In this document: positions 53,995 through 63,267 of the stretch, one piece after another
Layout of the letters: each line of letters opens with the position of its first letter
Numbering within the stretch: position 1 is the stretch's first letter
From: Nitrosopumilus sp.
GTDB taxonomy: Archaea; Thermoproteota; Nitrososphaeria; Nitrososphaerales; Nitrosopumilaceae
DNA: 64,000 nucleotides
Assembly (NCBI GenBank): GCA_965205425.1
Contig: CBDBGZ010000009.1
Coordinates: 192,001 to 256,000, forward strand
Direction: 5' to 3'
Made by a program: the position numbers and the translations under genes
The notes under the pieces: model-generated
The model's database searches: none
The model's input: the letters and a program-made list of their open reading frames with translations, nothing else
Told to the model about the DNA's origin: nothing

Positions 53995-55331
53995 TAACCA
54001 TATGTGCCAAAATCAGCTAGGAAATTAGATGGTACTTGCATTCGTATCAAGAAAGTAAGAAATGCAAACAAACACACTACCCTTCCTGAAAAAAAATATT
54101 TGATGTTTGTAGGATTGGATGTTCACAAGAACTCTGTACAGGTGGCAGCAGTAGATGAGATTGGCAAATTATTATTTAACAAAAAGATTTCCAGTGATTT
54201 TTCTGCTATTAGCAAAATTACATCCAAAATTCCAAAGAACGCAAAATATGTTTTAGAGTCATCATCTGTCTGGTATGGCCTTTATAGACACATGACAGAC
54301 AAATTACATCTTGATGTTATACTATCTAATCCATACAACACAAAGATAATAGCATCATCACTCAAAAAGACTGATAAAATTGATGCGTACCATCTTGCAA
54401 ATTTGCTACGAGGAGGATACATTGCAGAATCATTTGTGCCAGATCACACAATTGTGCAATACAGACAGCTTGTAAGACATCGACACAAGATTGTGCGCAT
54501 CATTGTAAAGATGAAGAATTCCATACATGGTATTACACTACAGGAGGGAATCCATATCAAAGCAACACCATTTTCCTCAGAACACATACGTGCACTTGGA
54601 AAATTGGAGAGTTATAGAATAGATTCGTACCTACAAAGCATAAAATTTCACAAAAAGGAGGTTGCAAAAATAGATTCCATGATACGTCGCATGGTAAATG
54701 ATAATCCTGACGTGTGTATTTTGACATCAATACCTGGAGTTGGACCATACACTGCATTGAGCATATTCTCAGAAATTGCAGAGATTAGTAGATTTTCAAA
54801 TTCTCGCAAGTTATGTGCATATGCAGGGATTGTTCCATCGGTGAGAAATTCTGCAGATACAATACATCACGGAAGAATTACAAAGAGAGGAAGCACCATG
54901 CTAAGATGGTTGCTAGTGGAGGCAATTCATGCACATGTTAGATGCGCACCAGATAGCGACATTACAAAATTTTACAATCGCATTAAGAAAAAGAGAGGGA
55001 CCTCAAAGGCAGCAGTTGCTGCTGCATCAAAGTTATTGCGTGTCATATATTGGATGCTAAAAGAGAGGAGAGAATTTATTCAATGTCATCAATAATTTGT
55101 AAAACATTACAGTTAGGAGTTTGGCCGCGTTTTCACATTGAGGATGCATAATACCTCGAAACTATAACCGCGGTTTCACCTAATAAATGGATGAAGATGG
55201 TACTGAGGGAGATCCTCGAATAGATATGTGTCCGGTTTCATCTTTTGAAAATGAATGGGATCATCTCTAGCGGTAGCCATTCTCATGTGTTGCAAAAGAG
55301 TGCAAATGTTTTTAAAGATTTCACATAGATA
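53995..55331 (+). mobile_element. IS110-B (transposase 54004-55095, intact)
   Basis: VGLDVHK, KTDKID motifs; ends TA-ACCATATGTG and CACATAGA-TA. Confidence 0.92.
55096..55329 (+). ncRNA. Bridge/seek RNA candidate of IS110-B
   Basis: 3' ~150 nt nearly identical to IS110-A; 5' target loop differs. Confidence 0.72.
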
Positions 55332-56453
55332 TGTGAATAAGAAGACAAGGAAATCAGATAGCATAAAAAATGAATCTAACAGTTCCAAAACTTGCAGTGT
55401 ACTCTCTCCAAAAAAGATTACAAACAAACAGATTAGGAAAAATCCAAAGAAAGGCATGTTTGTGGGCATTGATCTGCACAAAAAGTTTCTTCAAGTAGCA
55501 ATAATGGATGATACAGGCAAAGTATCACAAAACGACAAAGTGGATAACACTCATGAATCCATCAAAAAGTATTTTACAAAAATACCAATTTCTGCAAATA
55601 TTGTCATGGAATCCTCATCAGTCTGGTATGACACGTATCGATTTCTGACAGATACTTTGGGATACAAAAACGTCACACTCTCAAACCCATATTTGACAAA
55701 GGCAATTGCTGCATCAAAAAAGAAAACAGACAAGATTGATGCCAAGATATTGGCAGATCTTTTACGAGGAGGATACATTGCCAAATGCTATGTTCCAGAC
55801 AAAAAGATTGTACAACAAAGACAGCTTGTAAGATATAGGAAAAAACTAATCCAATGGAGAACATCTGTCAAGAATTCAGTTCATGGAATATTGTTACAAG
55901 AAGGAATCAAGATTCCAGGAGTTACATTCACTGAAACATACAACAGAAGACTCAAGGCACTAGGAGATTACAGAATAGACGGATTCTTGCAACAAATCAG
56001 CCACACCTTAATTTACAGATTGCAGAGATTAATTCCAAAGTGTATGCTGCTGTAAAAGTTAATCCTGATGCAATTTTAATAAACTCGATTCCAGGAATTG
56101 GGCATTATTCTTCGCTTGTCATTGCATCAGAGATTGCAGATATTGAAAGATTCAATGATTCTCACAAACTGTGTGCATATGCAGGAGTTGTACCATCAGT
56201 TAGAAACTCTGCAGATACAATACACCATGGCAGAATAACAAAACGAGGAAGCATGACATTGAGATGGGTTCTAACCGAGTGTATACACACTCATGCAATA
56301 CATGCCAAAGATAGTGACATTACAAAATTTTACAATCGCATTAAAAAGAAAAGAGGATCATCCAAAGCTGCAGTAGCTGGTGCATCAAAGATCCTGAGGG
56401 TGATTTATTGGATGTTAAAGGAGAGGAGAGAATTTGTACAAAATTATAGTTAG

Positions 56454-56655
56454 GACTGCAAGTCGCGTTGTAATTATTGAGGGACAAGGCCTCGTTTGAT
56501 AACTGCGAACAATCCTAACTAGGATGAAGATAGCATTGAGAGAATAGTCTCGTATGGATACATGTCTGCCATCTTTTGATTGAAACCATTCTCTAGCGAA
56601 AGCTATGCCCTGATGTATGGAAAGAGAGGAAATGTATAAAAACAATTCACATGGA
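56454..56655 (+). ncRNA. Bridge/seek RNA candidate of IS110-C
   Basis: Same architecture; guides TGTAATT and TGATA match its flanks; ATGGATA matches its own right end. Confidence 0.72.
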
Positions 56656-57019
56656 TAAATTACAAAAAGAGATTACAGAGCTAAAGAAGAAATTATCCTA
56701 CTATGAGAACCCAAACTCTCCACCATCATCTGATTCTCTCCACTGGAAAAAACAAAAGAAAGAACGAAAATCAACTCATCCAAACAAACCAGGACAAAAG
56801 CCAGGACATGATGGTAAAACTCACAGCTTCAAACCCACAAAAACAATTCATCATGATTCAAAGAAATGCTCAAACTGTGGCAGTAAAAAATAACTCAAAC
56901 TACACAACAAACTCGAATCATTGCAGAAATCCCAAAACCGCAACCAGTTACCATAACAAAACATGTTATTCCTTCTTACTTTTGCAACAATTGTGGAAAT
57001 ACAACAGTTACTGATTGCC

Positions 57020-58046
57020 GGGTGTGTCCTAAAAGTAGACAAATATAACAATTTTATTCAATTCTGTAACATATTGATCGCATGGAATCACAACAACTAT
57101 GCAAAACAAATCAAAAAGAGACTGGCAAGTATATGGCACATATCGCAAGGATGAGGAGATTCTATTCTTGGAAAAAGTAAAGAAGACAGTTTGGAGTATG
57201 GATACACCATGGGAACCAAAGACAGGCGGACGTCCTGCATTTCCAACAAAAGCAAAGATAATGTGTGCAATGCTAAAGGTAAAGTTTGGATTGGATTATC
57301 GTTCCATGGAGTCCCACTTGAGATCAAGGCCGGATCTGTTGGAAATAATGGAGCTCAAAAAAGCACCAAGCAAGACTGTCATTAATGACAGTCTAAAAAG
57401 AATTCCAATGCCTTATTTGAAAAAGGTAAACGCAAAACTCACAGAACCAATCAAAAAAAAGACATAGCTCCTGACAGTTCAGGATTTGGTACCAAAAGAT
57501 GTGAGGCTTGGTTTGACATCAAGACAAACACGCACAAATCCAAGAAATTATATCTAAAACTGCACATCCTAATTGCAATACAGTCCATGGCAATAGTATC
57601 TTTTGACATTACTAAAGGAACTCGTGGTGATGCACCAATTCTCAAAAAATTAATCAAAGACATTCCAAAGGGAATTGGTGATTTTTGTGCAGATCCTGCA
57701 TATTTGTCACGAGACATTTGCAATATGGTAGCTACTCTGCAAAAGATACCATACATCAAACCAAAGAAGAACACAGTTAGAAATCCCAAAGGCTCTGCAT
57801 CATGGAAAAAAAATGATAACATTATTCCAGGACAATCAAGATGAATTTGACAGACATTATCACAAGAGGTCACTTGTTGAATCAGTATTTGCAGTACTCA
57901 AAAGAATCTTTGGAAATAGCTTGTCATCAAAAAACAAGTTGGTTCAAAGAAAAGAGTTGGCGTTGCGTGTAATTTGTTACAACATACGAGTTGTTAATTT
58001 GATGGGGGTTACAAAACATGTTAGAGGATAGTTTTAGGACACACCC
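57020..58046 (+). mobile_element. Second copy of the IS5-like element at 21672-22697 (extra frameshift)
   Basis: Same TIRs; extra A near 57810; no TSD. Confidence 0.92.
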
Positions 58047-58076
58047 TCTTTACGCAGAAGGGATATTAACGGTTCT

Positions 58077-58526
58077 TTGTTCGACATACCAATTAAAGAC
58101 CCTCACGTAGGACTTGTTGAAATTCTAAATAATCTACCAGTTAACGGAATGGAATATTTACCGAATCGAGTTATGGGATTCTTTGAAGTGTTGTTCCCCG
58201 ATTATGTTCCTGAAAATCTAAGAAATTTTTTGATAACTATAAAACAAGTAGAAAACAATCCATCATTATTACAATTCTCAAAACATGAAGCAGTAGATAC
58301 TAGTGCAAAATCCATAAAAATAGGACTGGAATCCAAAGGATCAAATGATGAATGGTTTGAAATTCTTAATTCAATAGGATGGATAAACACCGCTGGAAAA
58401 ACAACTCAAAACATCAATGAATTTACCAGTGGTCTAGTATTGCCAAAAGGACAATCACAACTAAGGGCAGTATTACAACTATTGGGGAATCTAAAAATAT
58501 CTGCTGATGTCGTATTGTCGAACTGA
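58077..58526 (+). CDS. Hypothetical protein, probably 5'-truncated by the IS
   Basis: ORF abutting the IS end. Confidence 0.5.
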   Translation: MFDIPIKDPHVGLVEILNNLPVNGMEYLPNRVMGFFEVLFPDYVPENLRNFLITIKQVENNPSLLQFSKHEAVDTSAKSIKIGLESKGSNDEWFEILNSIGWINTAGKTTQNINEFTSGLVLPKGQSQLRAVLQLLGNLKISADVVLSN

Positions 58527-60631: not shown

Positions 60632-61775
60632 TGAGACATGGGCATAACTAATTCTAATTTTTGAGTCAATTCTCAAATTATTCAAATAGAAAAAGCTAAG
60701 GATCTTATCATGTTTTGTTCATTGTAATGTCAAAACAAATGAAAATCCCTAACAAGATTCTATCGGAATCATTTCTTATTGGTATGTTACATTTGGTGGG
60801 AATGTTGTCTTTGTATGAAGAGATACTGAAAACTTGGTAGACCGTACGTATACTCTACAATTCTAATGGTACAGCTGTCCATCATAAAATCTTGGATGAG
60901 AATTCCTAGTAACAATACATTACATTATTTCCTTTCAATCAAACCTTCCAATGACAAACTGCTCAAGGTTTGCAAATTAACTCAAATTCCAGACAGAAGA
61001 ACTATTGACAGACGATTTCAATTTCTACCCATTAGTGACATGATTAGTACCATGGGCAACAAATTCATCTCAGAGGGATTGGTGGAAAATGTTTCAGCAT
61101 CAGGGGATAGTTCAATGCTAAAAGCAGATGGTCCAGTATGGCACAAATCAGACATAAAGAACAATCGTCTACCAATCCCAGGAATTGATACTGATGCAAA
61201 ATGGGGTTTTTCAAAATCAAAGGGTTGGATATTTGGATACAAACTGCACATGAGTTGCAGTACTGGAAAACTGATAGTTCCATTGTCTGCTGATGTTTCA
61301 ACTGCAAATGTTTCTGATGGTAAAATGTATGAAACGTTAGTCAAACCACTTGCAGGACTAGTTGAAAATGTTCTATGTGATGTGCCATATGATGATAAAT
61401 CATTATATCAGTTTAGTGATGGGAGACATTTGAGATTGATTTGTCCTATCAAAATATATCCATCAACACCGCCAGAGCGAATCAAACTTGCAGATTTTTA
61501 TAATTCTGTACAAGGTCAAGAGTTGTACTCACAAAGAAAAGTCTCAATTGAACCTTTATTTGAAATATTCAAAGATACGTTCAACATTAGAACTGTACAT
61601 GTGAAAGGATTTGACAACGTGAAATCATTTGTATTGGTTTGTGTGTTGGTGTATCAACTTGTAGTATATTACAACTGTATAATTGGAGCAGAAAATCCAA
61701 GAACTGTAAAGAGAATGCTTTGCTGTTAGGAAATGACTGAGAGTTATTTTTGTAAATAATTATGCCCAAGTCTCA
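60632..61775 (+). mobile_element. IS4/IS5-superfamily DDE element, transposase degraded at the 5' end
   Basis: TIR TGAGACWTGGGCATAA; DSS, GYKLH and RKVSIE motifs. Confidence 0.85.
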
Positions 61776-62136
61776 GATATTTTGGTACAAGTTCCAAGTC
61801 ATTATGAGAATGAATATTTTTTTCAAAGTAATTCTCAGATGGACCCATTACAACATAGTGAGATAACACATTAAATGCCCCGTTTGATTTTATTGGTTCT
61901 GCCCTGAACCCTTGGCAGGTATCTGAACCCTTGAATTTGAAAACAAAATGGCTTGCATCTCCAGGGTACAATGAACCATCAGGATTGTTTCGGAATTGTC
62001 CTCCATATGAAATAGGAAATAGTTTTCCGTCAATACTAACACTGCATGGTTTTTCTAAACTCTGATGAGTTGCATATGCGGTAGTAACAACAATCGGAAT
62101 GAATAATAGTAAAAATAACAAGAGAATAATTTTCAC
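61776..62136 (-). pseudogene. 5' part of a secreted protein truncated by the IS
   Basis: Signal peptide; ORF runs into the TIR. Confidence 0.6.
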
Positions 62137-62187: not shown

Positions 62188-62349
62188 TCAAGATATTGAA
62201 ACTTTGCCTGATTTTTCTATGGTAAATGTTACAGTATCTGGAATGTTAAGGAATTGATCTAAAGGTTTTGGTAATGTCATCTTGACATCTTTTCCAACTC
62301 GGTTAACACTTACTGTAAATTTTGTTGCACCTTCTTTCCATTTTGGCAT
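62188..62349 (-). CDS. AbrB/MazE-like swapped-hairpin DNA-binding protein (53 aa)
   Basis: MPKWKEGATKFTVSVNRVGKDVKMTLPKPLDQFLNIPDTVTFTIEKSGKVSIS; upstream TATAAATA; not in the ORF track. Confidence 0.75.
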   Translation of the reverse strand: MPKWKEGATKFTVSVNRVGKDVKMTLPKPLDQFLNIPDTVTFTIEKSGKVSIS

Positions 62350-62417: not shown

Positions 62418-62429
62418 ATTAATATTTGT

Positions 62430-62500
62430 GGGCCAGTAATTCGAAGGTCGAATCTCTAGTCGTCAACTAGAAGGCTCGGGTTCGATTCCCGACTGGTCCA
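62430..62500 (+). tRNA. Atypical tRNA: anticodon GTC (Asp) on an Ala-type acceptor (G3:U70, A73), with C33
   Basis: GGGCCAG/CTGGTCC-A; D ATTC/GAAT; AC TCTAG-TCGTCAA-CTAGA; T TCGGG-TTCGATT-CCCGA. Confidence 0.85.
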
Positions 62501-62535
62501 CGTAATGTTTATTTAGAAATGATATGTAGAATAAT

Positions 62536-62580
62536 TAGTTGACGACTAGATGTTAGTTCGCCTTTGAACTAGCCTTTTTT
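62536..62580 (+). ncRNA. Sequence antisense to the 5' half of the upstream tRNA, ending in a hairpin and T6
   Basis: TAGTTGACGACTAGA is the exact reverse complement of 62455-62469; degenerate complementarity continues through the D arm and acceptor. Confidence 0.55.
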
Positions 62581-62655
62581 CTATTTTCTGAAAATTTTAG
62601 AGGGGTTTAACATCTAGGCATAATTTCAAAAAATCATTACACCATTGAGTTTTTG

Positions 62656-62897
62656 TGCGTAAGTAAATTTTGTGACAATATCGTATTGTGCCATCGGGCT
62701 GAAATGAGGTTTGATTGTTCCATTTACGAACAAAAGCTAAACCCGCCCTGAATTTTGGGAATTGTAAAAAATTCACATCATGCCTGATGTGAATACAATA
62801 ATTGAGGGGGTGAATATTTACGCATAAGTTTTTTCCAATTTTACATATTTGATAGGGGGTTTAGCTTTTAGGCACAAATTTGGTCATTAACAAATTT
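62656..62897 (+). ncRNA. Candidate large multi-stem structured RNA with possible pseudoknot
   Basis: Stems 62686-92/62871-77, 62732-44/62857-69, 62771-80/62785-94; two small hairpins; 62656-65/62815-24 pairing; G-U pairs favour + strand. Confidence 0.55.
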
Positions 62898-62931
62898 TAT
62901 TAATTCATCATGTAATAATAAATTAGAAACA

Positions 62932-63019
62932 CGTCAGGAATGGGATTCGAACCCATGAAACCGATGTACTCAGCAAAGAGATTTTCAATCTCTCGGTATT
63001 ACCACTAACCGATCCTGAC
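62932..63019 (-). tRNA. Atypical class II tRNA: anticodon GAA (Phe) with long variable arm and G73 (Ser-type body)
   Basis: GTCAGGA/TCCTGAC-G; D GGT/ACC; AC AGAGA-TTGAAAA-TCTCT; 20-nt variable region with GCTGA/TCGGT stem; T ATGGG-TTCGAAT-CCCAT; upstream TTAAATA. Confidence 0.85.
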
Positions 63020-63267
63020 GAGTTTTCTTCTAAAAATTCCTATTTAAGAATTGGTTCTGATGTATTCAAGTGAATAAAATCTTAGAATATTCAACCTTTA
63101 AAAAATAGAAATTTGTATTATTATTACGGTTCCGTTGGTGTAATGCTGACTATGAGACTTGGAAACAAGAGCTCAGGGATCGACTTTATCTTTCAACATT
63201 TCAATATATGAAAAAATAACTAATATTGTAAAATTTCATAAAACCTCTATTTCTCATTATTCTCACA

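What the first reader, a model, noticed from the sequence alone, without database searches (positions are those of the whole stretch)
62430..62500. tRNA with alanine identity but aspartate anticodon
Seen: acceptor G1-C72, G2-C71, G3:U70 and discriminator A73; anticodon loop UC-GUC-AA; every stem fully paired. Established: G3:U70 and A73 specify Ala, whereas tRNA-Asp uses G73 and C38, both absent here. C33 replaces the near-universal U33. Inference: charged with Ala and reading GAC/GAU, or an Ala-charged non-decoding RNA.
Basis: partly seen in the sequence, partly recalled or inferred. Interest (0 to 1): 0.85.

Follow-up and report, generated by a model that had tools for sequence, protein, structure and literature searches.

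The report
Alanine tRNA mimics with antisense partners
The odd "alanine acceptor, aspartate anticodon" tRNA is real, and it belongs to a previously undescribed family in ammonia-oxidising archaea in which each alanine-type tRNA look-alike sits beside its own small RNA gene that is complementary to its anticodon loop, which looks like an RNA-only poison-and-antidote pair.

Summary
Window 62430-62500(+) is a clean cloverleaf (Rfam tRNA 52.4 bits) with G1-C72, G2-C71, G3.U70, A73 and the loop UCGUCAA.

It is not an isolated mutant. It is one of 7 paralogues in this Nitrosopumilus genome and one of 43 copies compiled from at least 15 of 151 congeners plus metagenomes.

- **Alanine identity is kept.** G3.U70 occurs in 38 of 40 distinct copies, while acceptor pairs 5:68 and 6:67 change on both sides.
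- **The anticodon arm is the most variable part.**
- **Every copy has a partner.** Each has a linked gene for a small RNA of about 45 nt: a TATA-like box, a 5' seed complementary to positions ~27-41 of its own tRNA-like RNA, a hairpin and a T-run. Here the small RNA is at 62536-62580, with 15 of 15 Watson-Crick pairs.
- **Seeds and arms covary.** Each position shows 3-5 pair types.
- **Decay is one-sided.** Small-RNA genes without an intact tRNA-like gene are common (11 of 25). The reverse was seen once, in a damaged copy.

Best reading (about 0.45): an alanine-charged, mis-decoding tRNA acts as a toxin, and an antisense RNA that masks its anticodon acts as the antidote. The modules lie in IS-rich and mobile-element-rich islands. 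No expression or charging data were available. I found no published description.

The parts
62425..62429 (+). 5' leader TTTGT immediately before G1
   Evidence: Identical in all 7 copies in this genome and in 24 of 40 distinct family members. It is also found before ordinary tRNA-Ala(UGC) genes of the genus, which points to descent from tRNA-Ala.
62430..62500 (+). tRNA-like gene with alanine acceptor identity (G1-C72, G2-C71, G3.U70, A73), anticodon GUC, C33, no encoded CCA
   Evidence: 92.3 bits with family model R1. Cloverleaf covariation in the family: 96% of cells paired, 16 of 21 pairs changed on both sides, 0 of 500 shuffles as high.
62455..62471 (+). Anticodon arm (stem UCUAG/CUAGA, loop UCGUCAA), the variable address that the small RNA recognises
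   Evidence: tRNA positions 27-41 are Watson-Crick complementary to 62536-62550.
62508..62516 (+). TATA-like box TTTATTTAG, 19 nt upstream of the seed; presumed promoter of the small RNA
   Evidence: A conserved box (TTTAATTAG or variants) sits at the same place in the 7 aligned same-strand modules. A/T-rich boxes lie 19-22 nt before the seed in the other classes. Promoter activity is inferred, not shown.
62536..62550 (+). 5' seed of the small RNA, 15 nt, perfectly complementary to the anticodon arm of the neighbouring tRNA-like RNA
   Evidence: Shuffled arms against their own flanks gave a mean longest match of 6.8 and a maximum of 12 in 4200 trials.
62552..62573 (+). Hairpin GTTAGTTC-loop-GAACTAGC of the small RNA
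   Evidence: Terminator-like site found by the scan. The 45-nt RNA folds at -10.2 kcal/mol, z -3.05. A compensatory change is seen in G014a (TAGCTC/GAGCTA).
62575..62580 (+). T-run, presumed transcription stop of the small RNA
62581..62682 (.). About 100 nt conserved with modules C and G014a only. It may be the 3' end of a minus-strand ORF (62597-62776). Whether it belongs to the module is uncertain.
   Evidence: In copy C the homology is cut by an IS at C9:711082/3.
62188..62349 (-). Divergent 53-aa ORF (MPKWK...). Similar small ORFs lie upstream of modules G and G036a. It is an optional neighbour, not part of every module.
   Evidence: No Pfam family at E<=0.01. Only itself was found by the word-based search.

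Best explanation
Window 62430-62500 encodes a tRNA-shaped RNA derived from tRNA-Ala. It keeps everything needed to be matured and alanylated: the cloverleaf, the T loop, G18G19, and the G1-C72/G2-C71/G3.U70/A73 identity set. Its anticodon arm has become a fast-evolving address. Thirty-five bases downstream lies a separate gene for a small RNA of about 45 nt (62536-62580). The 5' 15 nt of that RNA pair perfectly with positions 27-41 of the tRNA-like RNA, that is the 5' strand of the anticodon stem, the whole loop and the start of the 3' strand. A hairpin and a U-run follow.

The pair is one copy of an accessory two-RNA cassette found in IS-rich, mobile-element-rich and defence-rich islands of some Nitrosopumilus genomes.

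Proposed mechanism:
1. The tRNA-like RNA receives CCA and is charged with alanine, because AlaRS ignores the anticodon.
2. Its 7-nt loop (A37 always, U33 mostly) reads Phe, Leu, Asp or Ile codons (GAY here) and inserts alanine, which is harmful.
3. The cognate small RNA binds and opens the anticodon arm. This keeps the RNA off the ribosome or marks it for decay.
4. A stable tRNA with a short-lived antisense RNA makes a poison-antidote (addiction or abortive-defence) module, and specificity is set by seed-arm complementarity.

Shown: the anatomy, family membership, covariation within the cloverleaf and between the two genes, conservation of G3.U70, sporadic distribution, and one-sided decay. 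Inferred: transcription of both RNAs, alanylation, decoding, toxicity and neutralisation.
For: **Family.**
- The family has 7 copies in this genome.
- 42 model hits (40 distinct) come from this genome, its relatives and metagenomes.
- A scan of 151 genomes of the genus put family members in at least 15.

**Alanine identity under selection.**
- Pairs 1:72 and 2:71 are G-C in 40 of 40 distinct copies.
- Pair 3:70 is G.U in 38 of 40.
- Pairs 5:68 and 6:67 show 5-6 pair types.
- A73 is present in 38 of 40.
- AlaRS recognises G3.U70 and not the anticodon, and tRNA-Ala anticodon variants mistranslate and slow growth in yeast (PMC10543346, abstract; PMC9976931, passages).

**Linked antisense gene.**
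- Of 43 family members, 42 have a segment complementary to their own anticodon arm within 300 nt, scoring at least 12.5 (median 15).
- 46 ordinary tRNAs of this genome gave a median of 8.5 and a maximum of 13.
- In an unbiased tRNA-like-first sample of 20 new hits, all 19 family members had it. The one ordinary tRNA-Ala(CGC) did not.
- The segment is always followed by a hairpin and a T-run and preceded by an A/T box 19-22 nt upstream. This holds in all three placements: downstream same strand 13, upstream divergent 28, downstream convergent 2.

**Covariation between the two genes.**
- Positions 27-41 are paired in at least 17 of 19 distinct modules, with 3-5 pair types per position.
- Cognate cofold gain averages -16.2 kcal/mol, against a non-cognate median of 0.
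- Internal imperfections: five are G.U (B p35 and G015 p39; two G397 modules by eye), two are non-wobble mismatches, and none is A.C.

**The arm evolves fastest.** In near-identical type-2 bodies, 5 of 8 columns at positions 31-38 vary, against 9 of 64 elsewhere.

**One-sided decay.** Of 25 real small-RNA places found by hairpin patterns, 11 lack an intact cognate tRNA-like gene. The only tRNA-like gene without a small RNA (L057) has an IS-like sequence at its 5' end and a C6.U67 mismatch.

**Loop keeps tRNA features.** A37 is present in 40 of 40, U33 in 30 of 40, and only 7 anticodon types occur.

**Context.** The neighbours are IS elements, a TraG/VirD4-like gene, ParE, AAA_15, BrxC/D, Csa1 and a restriction-modification methylase.
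Against: - No RNA data: neither RNA is shown to be made, charged or paired (one search listed no RNA run).
- Decoding is doubtful for many copies. C33 occurs in 10 of 40, including this one. The closing pair 31:39 is unpaired in 23 of 40.
- A34 anticodons (AAG, AUC) are, as far as I recall, not normally used by archaeal tRNAs.
- This copy and the type-2 copies have G14 and C21 where tRNAs usually have A (read).
- No promoter for the tRNA-like gene could be assigned. In the divergent arrangement the only clear A/T box lies 6-16 nt from G1.
- The decay asymmetry is partly shaped by how I searched: hairpin patterns find small-RNA genes by design. IS insertions into the tRNA-like gene could be a target preference rather than a sign of selection.
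- Related copies are not independent, so all counts overstate the number of events.
- No conserved protein partner was found.
- Toxicity and half-lives are untested.
Confidence: 0.45

Rival explanations
1. The tRNA-like RNA does not decode. It could be an alanine donor for a non-ribosomal reaction, or a stable tRNA-shaped scaffold or sponge. Under this reading the small RNA is either its regulator or the real effector, which the tRNA-like RNA titrates or protects.
For: C33 occurs in 10 of 40 copies and the 31:39 pair is open in 23 of 40, giving effective 9-nt loops. A34 anticodons occur. The anticodon arm behaves as a recognition address that covaries with the seed. G3.U70 conservation fits any use of the alanylated RNA. 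An earlier scan note describes a phage tRNA mimic that acts as an antisense scaffold (e1-5357982, untested here).
Against: No aminoacyl-transferase or other conserved enzyme lies next to the modules. A37 is invariant, position 35 is only A or U, and only 7 of 64 anticodons occur. That is more tRNA-like than a free address needs. The seeds have no other match of 12 nt or more to host tRNAs: the best is 9 nt. I saw no further target in the genome at 11-mer level beyond chance. The one-sided loss of the tRNA-like gene is not predicted if it is harmless.
Confidence: 0.2
2. It is a regulated mistranslating tRNA used by the cell or the element for its own benefit, for example stress-induced statistical Ala substitution or recoding of particular genes. 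The small RNA would be the off-switch rather than an antidote.
For: The same anatomy as above. Natural mistranslating tRNA families exist in bacteria (PMC10404621, search listing and abstract only). The anticodon set is non-random.
Against: The distribution is sporadic and multi-copy: at least 15 of 151 genomes of the genus and none recognised among 24 genomes of other families in the order. The modules lie in IS and mobile-element islands. Decayed copies and orphan small RNAs are frequent. Specificities diversify rapidly. All of this fits selfish or defensive cassettes better than a housekeeping adaptation. No dedicated synthetase or target genes are linked.
Confidence: 0.12
3. The match is a DNA-level feature, not an RNA pairing. 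The anticodon-arm DNA and its nearby copy would be paired recombination sites (attachment or inversion sites of an integrase or invertase), or products of repeated gene conversion. The tRNA-like genes would be integration targets of mobile elements.
For: The modules lie at island borders, for example next to a TraG/VirD4-like gene in G236. Half or rearranged tRNA-like genes break at or near the anticodon arm (L071; L046). L114 shows a deletion exactly between the two direct copies.
Against: The copy is inverted in 13 modules and direct in 30. In both cases it lies on the strand where an A/T box comes 19-22 nt before it and a hairpin plus T-run directly after it, which is gene-like and not site-like. 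Imperfections are G.U-compatible in the RNA sense (5 G.U, 0 A.C). No flanking repeat of the tRNA-like region was found within 40 kb in G236. No integrase is consistently adjacent.
Confidence: 0.08
4. It is a decaying tRNA pseudogene whose odd features and neighbouring match are accidents.
For: IS-ridden surroundings. Some copies are clearly degenerate.
Against: There is strong compensatory covariation in all four stems. G3.U70 is conserved. Forty-two of 43 copies have cognate seeds, against ordinary-tRNA controls.
Confidence: 0.02

Closest known systems
Canonical archaeal tRNA-Ala
   Same: G1-C72, G2-C71, G3.U70 and A73. The same TTTGT 5' leader as the genus' tRNA-Ala(UGC) genes. No encoded CCA. 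Normal T arm.
   Different: The anticodon is never NGC. The D loop is short (72-75 nt in total). The anticodon arm is hypervariable. The family is accessory and multi-copy. Each copy is linked to an antisense small-RNA gene, whereas the ordinary tRNA-Ala genes (H, L146) have none.
Natural and engineered mistranslating tRNAs: tRNA-Ala anticodon variants (PMC10543346, abstract) and the bacterial tRNA-ProX family (PMC10404621, listing and abstract only)
   Same: The identity set of one amino acid is combined with the anticodon of another. AlaRS is blind to the anticodon.
   Different: Those are single tRNA genes, in one case with a dedicated synthetase. None is reported with a cognate antisense RNA. 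None is in archaea, to my knowledge (recalled). Here the anticodon arm diversifies together with a partner gene.
RNA-based toxin-antitoxin systems: type I and III (RNA antitoxins) and type VIII CreTA of Haloarcula (PMC12737573, passages)
   Same: A small, mobile two-gene cassette. The antidote is a short RNA that acts by base complementarity. In CreTA the toxin is itself an RNA that acts on translation through a tRNA. Orphan antidotes occur.
   Different: Here the presumed toxin would be a tRNA itself. The antidote would pair directly with the toxin RNA, without Cascade or any protein known so far. No toxin ORF exists.
tmRNA (bacterial, including two-piece forms)
   Same: An alanine-accepting tRNA-like domain with G3.U70. 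In two-piece forms, two RNAs are held together by pairing (recalled).
   Different: A full anticodon arm is present. There are no pseudoknots. No conserved tag reading frame exists, because the hairpin sequences differ between classes. ARAGORN finds no tmRNA. Archaea lack SmpB (recalled).
Antisense copy-control RNAs of plasmids (ColE1 RNA I/RNA II; recalled, not searched)
   Same: A loop-initiated RNA-RNA interaction, with specificity set by a few loop bases that diversify into incompatibility types.
   Different: No replication gene or origin is linked. One partner is a bona fide aminoacylatable tRNA shape.

Membership tests
tRNA (Rfam RF00005) | Cloverleaf with four helices and a conserved T loop, scoring above the gathering threshold of 29 bits | tested here: met
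   52.4 bits, full-length match. Family-wide covariation of all four helices.
tRNA-Ala | Acceptor identity set G1-C72, G2-C71, G3.U70 and A73 (PMC9976931, passages) | tested here: met
   Read. Family: G.U 38 of 40, A73 38 of 40.
tRNA-Ala | Anticodon NGC reading GCN codons | tested here: not met
   GUC here. No NGC anticodon in 40 distinct members.
tRNA-Ala | Charged by AlaRS | not testable with these tools
   Inferred from the identity set only.
tRNA-Asp | G73, G34, U35, C36 and C38 (PMC9976931, passage on aspartate identity) | tested here: not met
   G34, U35 and C36 are present, but A73 and A38 replace G73 and C38. The genome's own tRNA-Asp has G73 and C38.
tmRNA | tRNA-like domain without an anticodon arm, plus pseudoknots and a tag ORF | tested here: not met
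   ARAGORN reports no tmRNA. Rfam gives no tmRNA hit. A complete anticodon arm is present.
Archaeal C/D box guide sRNA (for the small RNA) | C (RUGAUGA) and D (CUGA) boxes flanking the guide, with a k-turn | tested here: not met
   The boxes are not conserved across the aligned small RNAs (by eye). No Rfam hit other than tRNA at E<=1.
Toxin-antitoxin module (RNA antitoxin types) | Two adjacent genes, one product neutralising the other, with a specific cognate relationship | tested here: inconclusive
   Adjacency and cognate specificity are met. Neutralisation is not testable here.
Toxin-antitoxin module (RNA antitoxin types) | Toxicity of one partner; a stable toxin and a labile antidote | not testable with these tools
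   Only indirect evidence: 11 of 25 small-RNA genes lack an intact tRNA-like gene, while the reverse was seen once in a damaged copy.
Mobile-element attachment site in a tRNA gene | A direct repeat of part of the tRNA gene at the far end of an inserted element, with an integrase nearby | tested here: not met
   No repeat of 17 nt or more of the tRNA-like region within 40 kb in G236. No consistent integrase. Tested at one locus only.
IS110 bridge/seek RNA | A non-coding RNA inside the IS, next to the DEDD transposase | tested here: not met
   The IS110 copy near module B ends about 200 nt before the module. The genome holds about 17 IS110-family copies.

The most novel reading that the evidence does not exclude
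This is an RNA-only addiction or defence cassette. The poison is an alanine-charged tRNA that misreads Phe, Leu, Asp or Ile codons. The antidote is a short, programmable antisense RNA that masks the anticodon loop. Specificities diversify by co-evolution of seed and anticodon arm, and the cassette spreads with mobile elements among marine ammonia-oxidising archaea.
Probability: 0.4. Interest if true: 0.95.

Novelty: categorically new. Interest (0 to 1): 0.88.

Why it matters
If the two RNAs work as inferred, this would be the first natural case of a tRNA used as a toxin through deliberate mistranslation. It would also be the first case of a tRNA controlled by a dedicated antisense RNA aimed at its anticodon.

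It would add an RNA-RNA toxin-antidote class in archaea. It would show that the anticodon-blindness of AlaRS is exploited by selfish or defensive elements. It would also offer a naturally orthogonal, programmable switch for mistranslating tRNAs.

The non-decoding reading would still be of interest. A conserved, alanylatable tRNA mimic with a co-evolving antisense partner in globally abundant nitrifiers has no described counterpart in the literature I could search.

Tried and rejected
- **Expression.** The look-up of sequencing runs listed no RNA holder (5 runs, none on record as RNA).
- **Viral origin.** Exact-pattern scans of IMG/VR gave 5 and 2 stretches. All 7 lack a tRNA and have unrelated context, so I treat them as chance.
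- **Genome-contig scan of the type-1 hairpin pattern.** It gave 34 stretches. Three are in two Nitrosopumilus records, the same places as G236 and G414. One is in a Nitrosopelagicus record that I did not look at. The other 30 are in bacterial records and were not inspected.
- **Metagenome scan.** Of 7 stretches, 4 are family-related (L071, L074, and L073 which equals L075) and 3 are unrelated.
- **Attachment-site repeats.** None found around G236a.
- **IS110 bridge-RNA idea.** Rejected.
- **The 1321-bp IS next to copy C.** This is an independent insertion.
- **Known RNA families.** Only tRNA matched.
- **Seeds aimed at host tRNAs.** The best match is 9 nt.
- **Seeds aimed at other genome sites.** 11-mer matches were at a level I judged to be chance, with no formal control.
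- **Antisense partner for the second odd tRNA family** (type-II-like, GAA). None within 400 nt.
- **The divergent 53-aa ORF.** No Pfam family, and only itself was returned by the search for homologous proteins. A pairwise comparison of the three similar small ORFs was not run, so their similarity rests on reading.
- **Arm finder error.** In one search my arm finder mis-registered G014c by 3 nt. Its row in the per-position table is shifted.
- **G236b small RNA.** It was mis-extracted (117 nt) because of the internal duplication, and it was left out.

Full report
**1. The observation**

The window comes from contig C9 of a 2.2-Mb, 33% G+C archaeal genome. Record titles of two close relatives name the genus Nitrosopumilus.

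ARAGORN and Rfam both call a tRNA at 62430-62500(+) (52.4 bits, E 2.2e-8). The genome's ordinary tRNA-Asp has G73 and C38. The aspartate identity set is G73, G34, U35, C36 and C38, and the alanine set is G1-C72, G2-C71, G3.U70 and A73 (passages of PMC9976931).

**2. It is one of a family**

A whole-genome ARAGORN run showed several 72-75-nt genes with the same GGG...UCCA acceptor but different anticodons. Seven share the TTTGT leader, G3.U70 and A73.

A covariance model built from them (R1) scores the seven at 78.5-94.1 bits. Ordinary tRNAs score at most 62.9 bits.

The same leader precedes ordinary tRNA-Ala(UGC) genes of the genus. The family therefore looks derived from tRNA-Ala.

**3. Each member has a cognate complementary segment nearby**

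A k-mer scan found that the anticodon arm of each copy recurs nearby. For A, C and G it is reverse-complemented about 110-130 nt downstream. For D, E and F it is a direct copy about 50 nt upstream. B has a 13-nt match with one G.U.

In the window the segment is 62536-62550. It forms 15 Watson-Crick pairs with tRNA positions 27-41.

Read on the strand where it is antisense to the tRNA-like RNA, the segment always has the same setting: an A/T-rich TATA-like box 19-22 nt upstream, then a hairpin and a T-run directly after it. The predicted RNAs are 40-46 nt (terminator-like site; fold z -3.05).

An alignment of seven same-strand modules shows a conserved box, a variable spacer, a variable seed, a conserved hairpin and a T-run. 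G014a has a compensatory change in the hairpin.

No Rfam family other than tRNA matches these regions.

**4. Distribution**

| Search | Result |
|---|---|
| Type-1 hairpin pattern, 401 genomes of the family | 5 genomes matched, 1 by chance |
| Type-2 hairpin pattern, 151 genomes of the genus | 10 genomes matched |
| Model R1, the same 151 genomes | family members in at least 15 |
| 24 genomes of other families in the order | two best hits are ordinary tRNA-Ala(UGC) |

Some genomes hold many copies: 7 here, and at least 8 in G397.

The neighbours are IS elements (IS110, IS4/5, IS630, IS3-like), a TraG/VirD4-like gene, ParE, AAA_15, BrxC/D, Csa1 and a restriction-modification methylase. This genome is extremely IS-rich. 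The adjacency of copy B to an IS110 and of copy C to a 1321-bp IS is incidental.

**5. Tests of the link**

- *Longest exact match.* Cognate arm against its own flank gives 8-21 nt in 21 modules. The two low values are each interrupted by a single G.U or mismatch. Shuffled arms give a mean of 6.8 and a maximum of 12 in 4200 trials. Off-diagonal values of 11 or more come only from identical arms or from the adjacent D/E pair.
- *Unbiased tRNA-like-first sample.* Twenty new R1 hits were taken from the genus scan. All 19 family members have a cognate seed followed by a hairpin and a T-run; 18 score at least 12.5 and one decaying copy has 9 nt. The one ordinary tRNA-Ala(CGC) has none.
- *All 43 members.* The median score is 15, and 42 of 43 score at least 12.5. 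Forty-six ordinary tRNAs of this genome give a median of 8.5 and a maximum of 13.
- *Placement.* Downstream same strand 13, upstream divergent 28, downstream convergent 2 (three by coordinates).

**6. Covariation**

*Within the tRNA-like RNA (40 distinct sequences).* 96% of cells are paired, 16 of 21 pairs have changes on both sides, and 0 of 500 shuffles reach the observed values. Slid controls give 33-49% paired. Pairs 1:72 and 2:71 never vary. Pair 3:70 is G.U in 38 of 40. Pairs 5:68 and 6:67 show 5 and 6 pair types. The wobble pair has thus been kept through extensive turnover of its neighbours. That is what selection for AlaRS recognition predicts.

*Between the genes (19 distinct modules).* Positions 27-41 pair with the seed in at least 17 of 19, with 3-5 pair types per position.

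*Internal imperfections.* Five are G.U: B p35 and G015 p39, and two G397 modules (read by eye). Two are non-wobble: G007 G-G and G036c C-U. None is A.C. The numbers are small, and some cases may share descent.

*Rate of change.* Among near-identical type-2 bodies, variation is concentrated in positions 31-38: 5 of 8 columns against 9 of 64 elsewhere (Fisher p 0.006; the sequences are related, and G015 and G236b were left out).

*Energy.* Cofolding gives a cognate gain of -16.2 kcal/mol on average, against a non-cognate median of 0.

**7. The loop is not a free address**

- A37 occurs in 40 of 40 copies.
- U33 occurs in 30 and C33 in 10.
- Position 34 is G in 28, A in 10 and C in 2.
- Position 35 is only A or U.
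- The anticodons are limited to GAA 15, AAG 9, GUC 8, GAG 3, CAG 2, GAU 2 and AUC 1, that is Phe, Leu, Asp and Ile.
- The closing pair 31:39 is unpaired in 23 of 40. This would ease invasion by the small RNA, but it also casts doubt on efficient decoding.

**8. Decay is one-sided**

Of 25 real small-RNA places found by the hairpin patterns, 11 lack an intact cognate tRNA-like gene.

- *Type 2, 8 of 17:* truncated, IS-interrupted, internally duplicated, deleted between the two direct copies, or absent.
- *Type 1, 3 of 8:* two orphan anti-GUC-type small RNAs lie beside type-2 modules in G236, and one stands alone in G414. Neither genome has a matching tRNA-like gene.

The only tRNA-like gene without a small RNA (L057) has foreign, IS-like sequence right at its 5' end and a C6.U67 mismatch.

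The pattern searches find small RNAs by design, so this asymmetry is suggestive rather than proof. It is, though, what a poison-antidote pair predicts.

**9. Interpretation**

*The most economical reading:*
- The RNA is matured and alanylated. AlaRS reads G3.U70 and not the anticodon (PMC10543346, abstract).
- Its loop can read abundant Phe, Leu, Asp and Ile codons and insert alanine, which is harmful. In yeast, 36 of the 60 tRNA-Ala anticodon variants tested reduced growth, and 52 of 57 mistranslated (PMC10543346, abstract).
- The linked small RNA neutralises it by pairing with the anticodon arm.
- Diversifying, co-evolving specificities, orphan antidotes, multi-copy sporadic occurrence and island context all fit a selfish or defensive cassette.

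*Closest precedent.* The RNA-RNA type VIII CreTA pair of haloarchaea (PMC12737573, passages). There the toxin is an mRNA-like RNA and the antidote works through Cascade.

*Rivals.* A non-decoding alanyl-RNA or sponge; a beneficial regulated mistranslator; DNA-level recombination sites; pseudogenes. They are weighed in their own section.

*Not shown.* Transcription, charging, decoding, toxicity and pairing in vivo are all unshown. No RNA run was available.

**10. Novelty**

Full-text searches returned no description of such a module. The searches were:
- tRNA-like + Thaumarchaeota + mobile genetic elements
- Nitrosopumilus + tRNA-like
- alanine identity + anticodon + mistranslation + tRNA genes + archaea
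- mistranslating tRNA terms
- RNA toxin/antitoxin + type VIII + archaea + tRNA

Subscription-only literature was not searched.

It is related in theme but different in anatomy, and I did not test it here.

Noticed in passing
window 62931-63020 (-): A second odd tRNA: 90 nt, Rfam tRNA 56.9 bits, anticodon GAA, an 18-nt variable arm and G at the discriminator. It has two paralogues elsewhere in the genome (C8:120792-120883, C9:901280-901368). By the recalled rule (long variable arm plus G73) it looks serine-type with a Phe anticodon, so another anticodon-blind identity. No antisense partner lies within 400 nt.
   Followed up: partly
window 62771-62794 (-): A terminator-like hairpin with a T-run downstream of the type-II-like tRNA on the minus strand.
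   Followed up: no
G000 C9:453980-454040 (L005, downstream of module F); also L042 and L046: A conserved element of about 59 nt that folds strongly (-23 kcal/mol). It follows the tRNA-like/small-RNA modules in F, G236a and G236b. There is a single copy in this genome and no Rfam hit.
   Followed up: partly
window 62581-62682 and minus-strand ORF 62597-62776: About 100 nt after the small RNA is conserved with modules C and G014a. The differences include several synonymous-looking changes in the minus-strand frame, so it may be the end of a small gene.
   Followed up: partly
window 62188-62349 (-) and 61744-62136 (-): A divergent 53-aa ORF (MPKWK...) followed by a 130-aa ORF with a hydrophobic N-terminus. 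Similar pairs lie upstream of modules G and G036a. No Pfam family was found.
   Followed up: partly
whole genome G000; window 54004-58500: Extreme IS load: a 1321-bp IS in about 30 copies, about 17 IS110-family copies, and many IS630 and IS4/5 fragments. The window region upstream of the finding holds IS110, DDE, GIY-YIG and PGDYG fragments.
   Followed up: partly
L114 (G014:C2:18203-18290): A small-RNA hairpin fused directly to the anticodon arm and 3' half of a tRNA-like gene. This is the product expected from recombination between the 16-nt direct copies, and it deletes the promoter region and the 5' half.
   Followed up: no
L071 (metagenome contig, 821 nt held): A type-1 module nearly identical to copy B, with a perfect seed, followed by the 3' half of a type-2 tRNA-like gene that starts at position 39. 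This shows modules recombining at the anticodon arm.
   Followed up: no
small-RNA genes of all classes: The 3' strand of the hairpin ends in CTAGCC (or CTAATCTC) just before the T-run in otherwise different hairpins. It may be a shared protein-binding or processing motif.
   Followed up: no
G000 C9:489600-491295: In intron mode ARAGORN calls a 1.7-kb 'tRNA-Ile' inside a gene of aspartate-rich repeats. This is a false positive.
   Followed up: no
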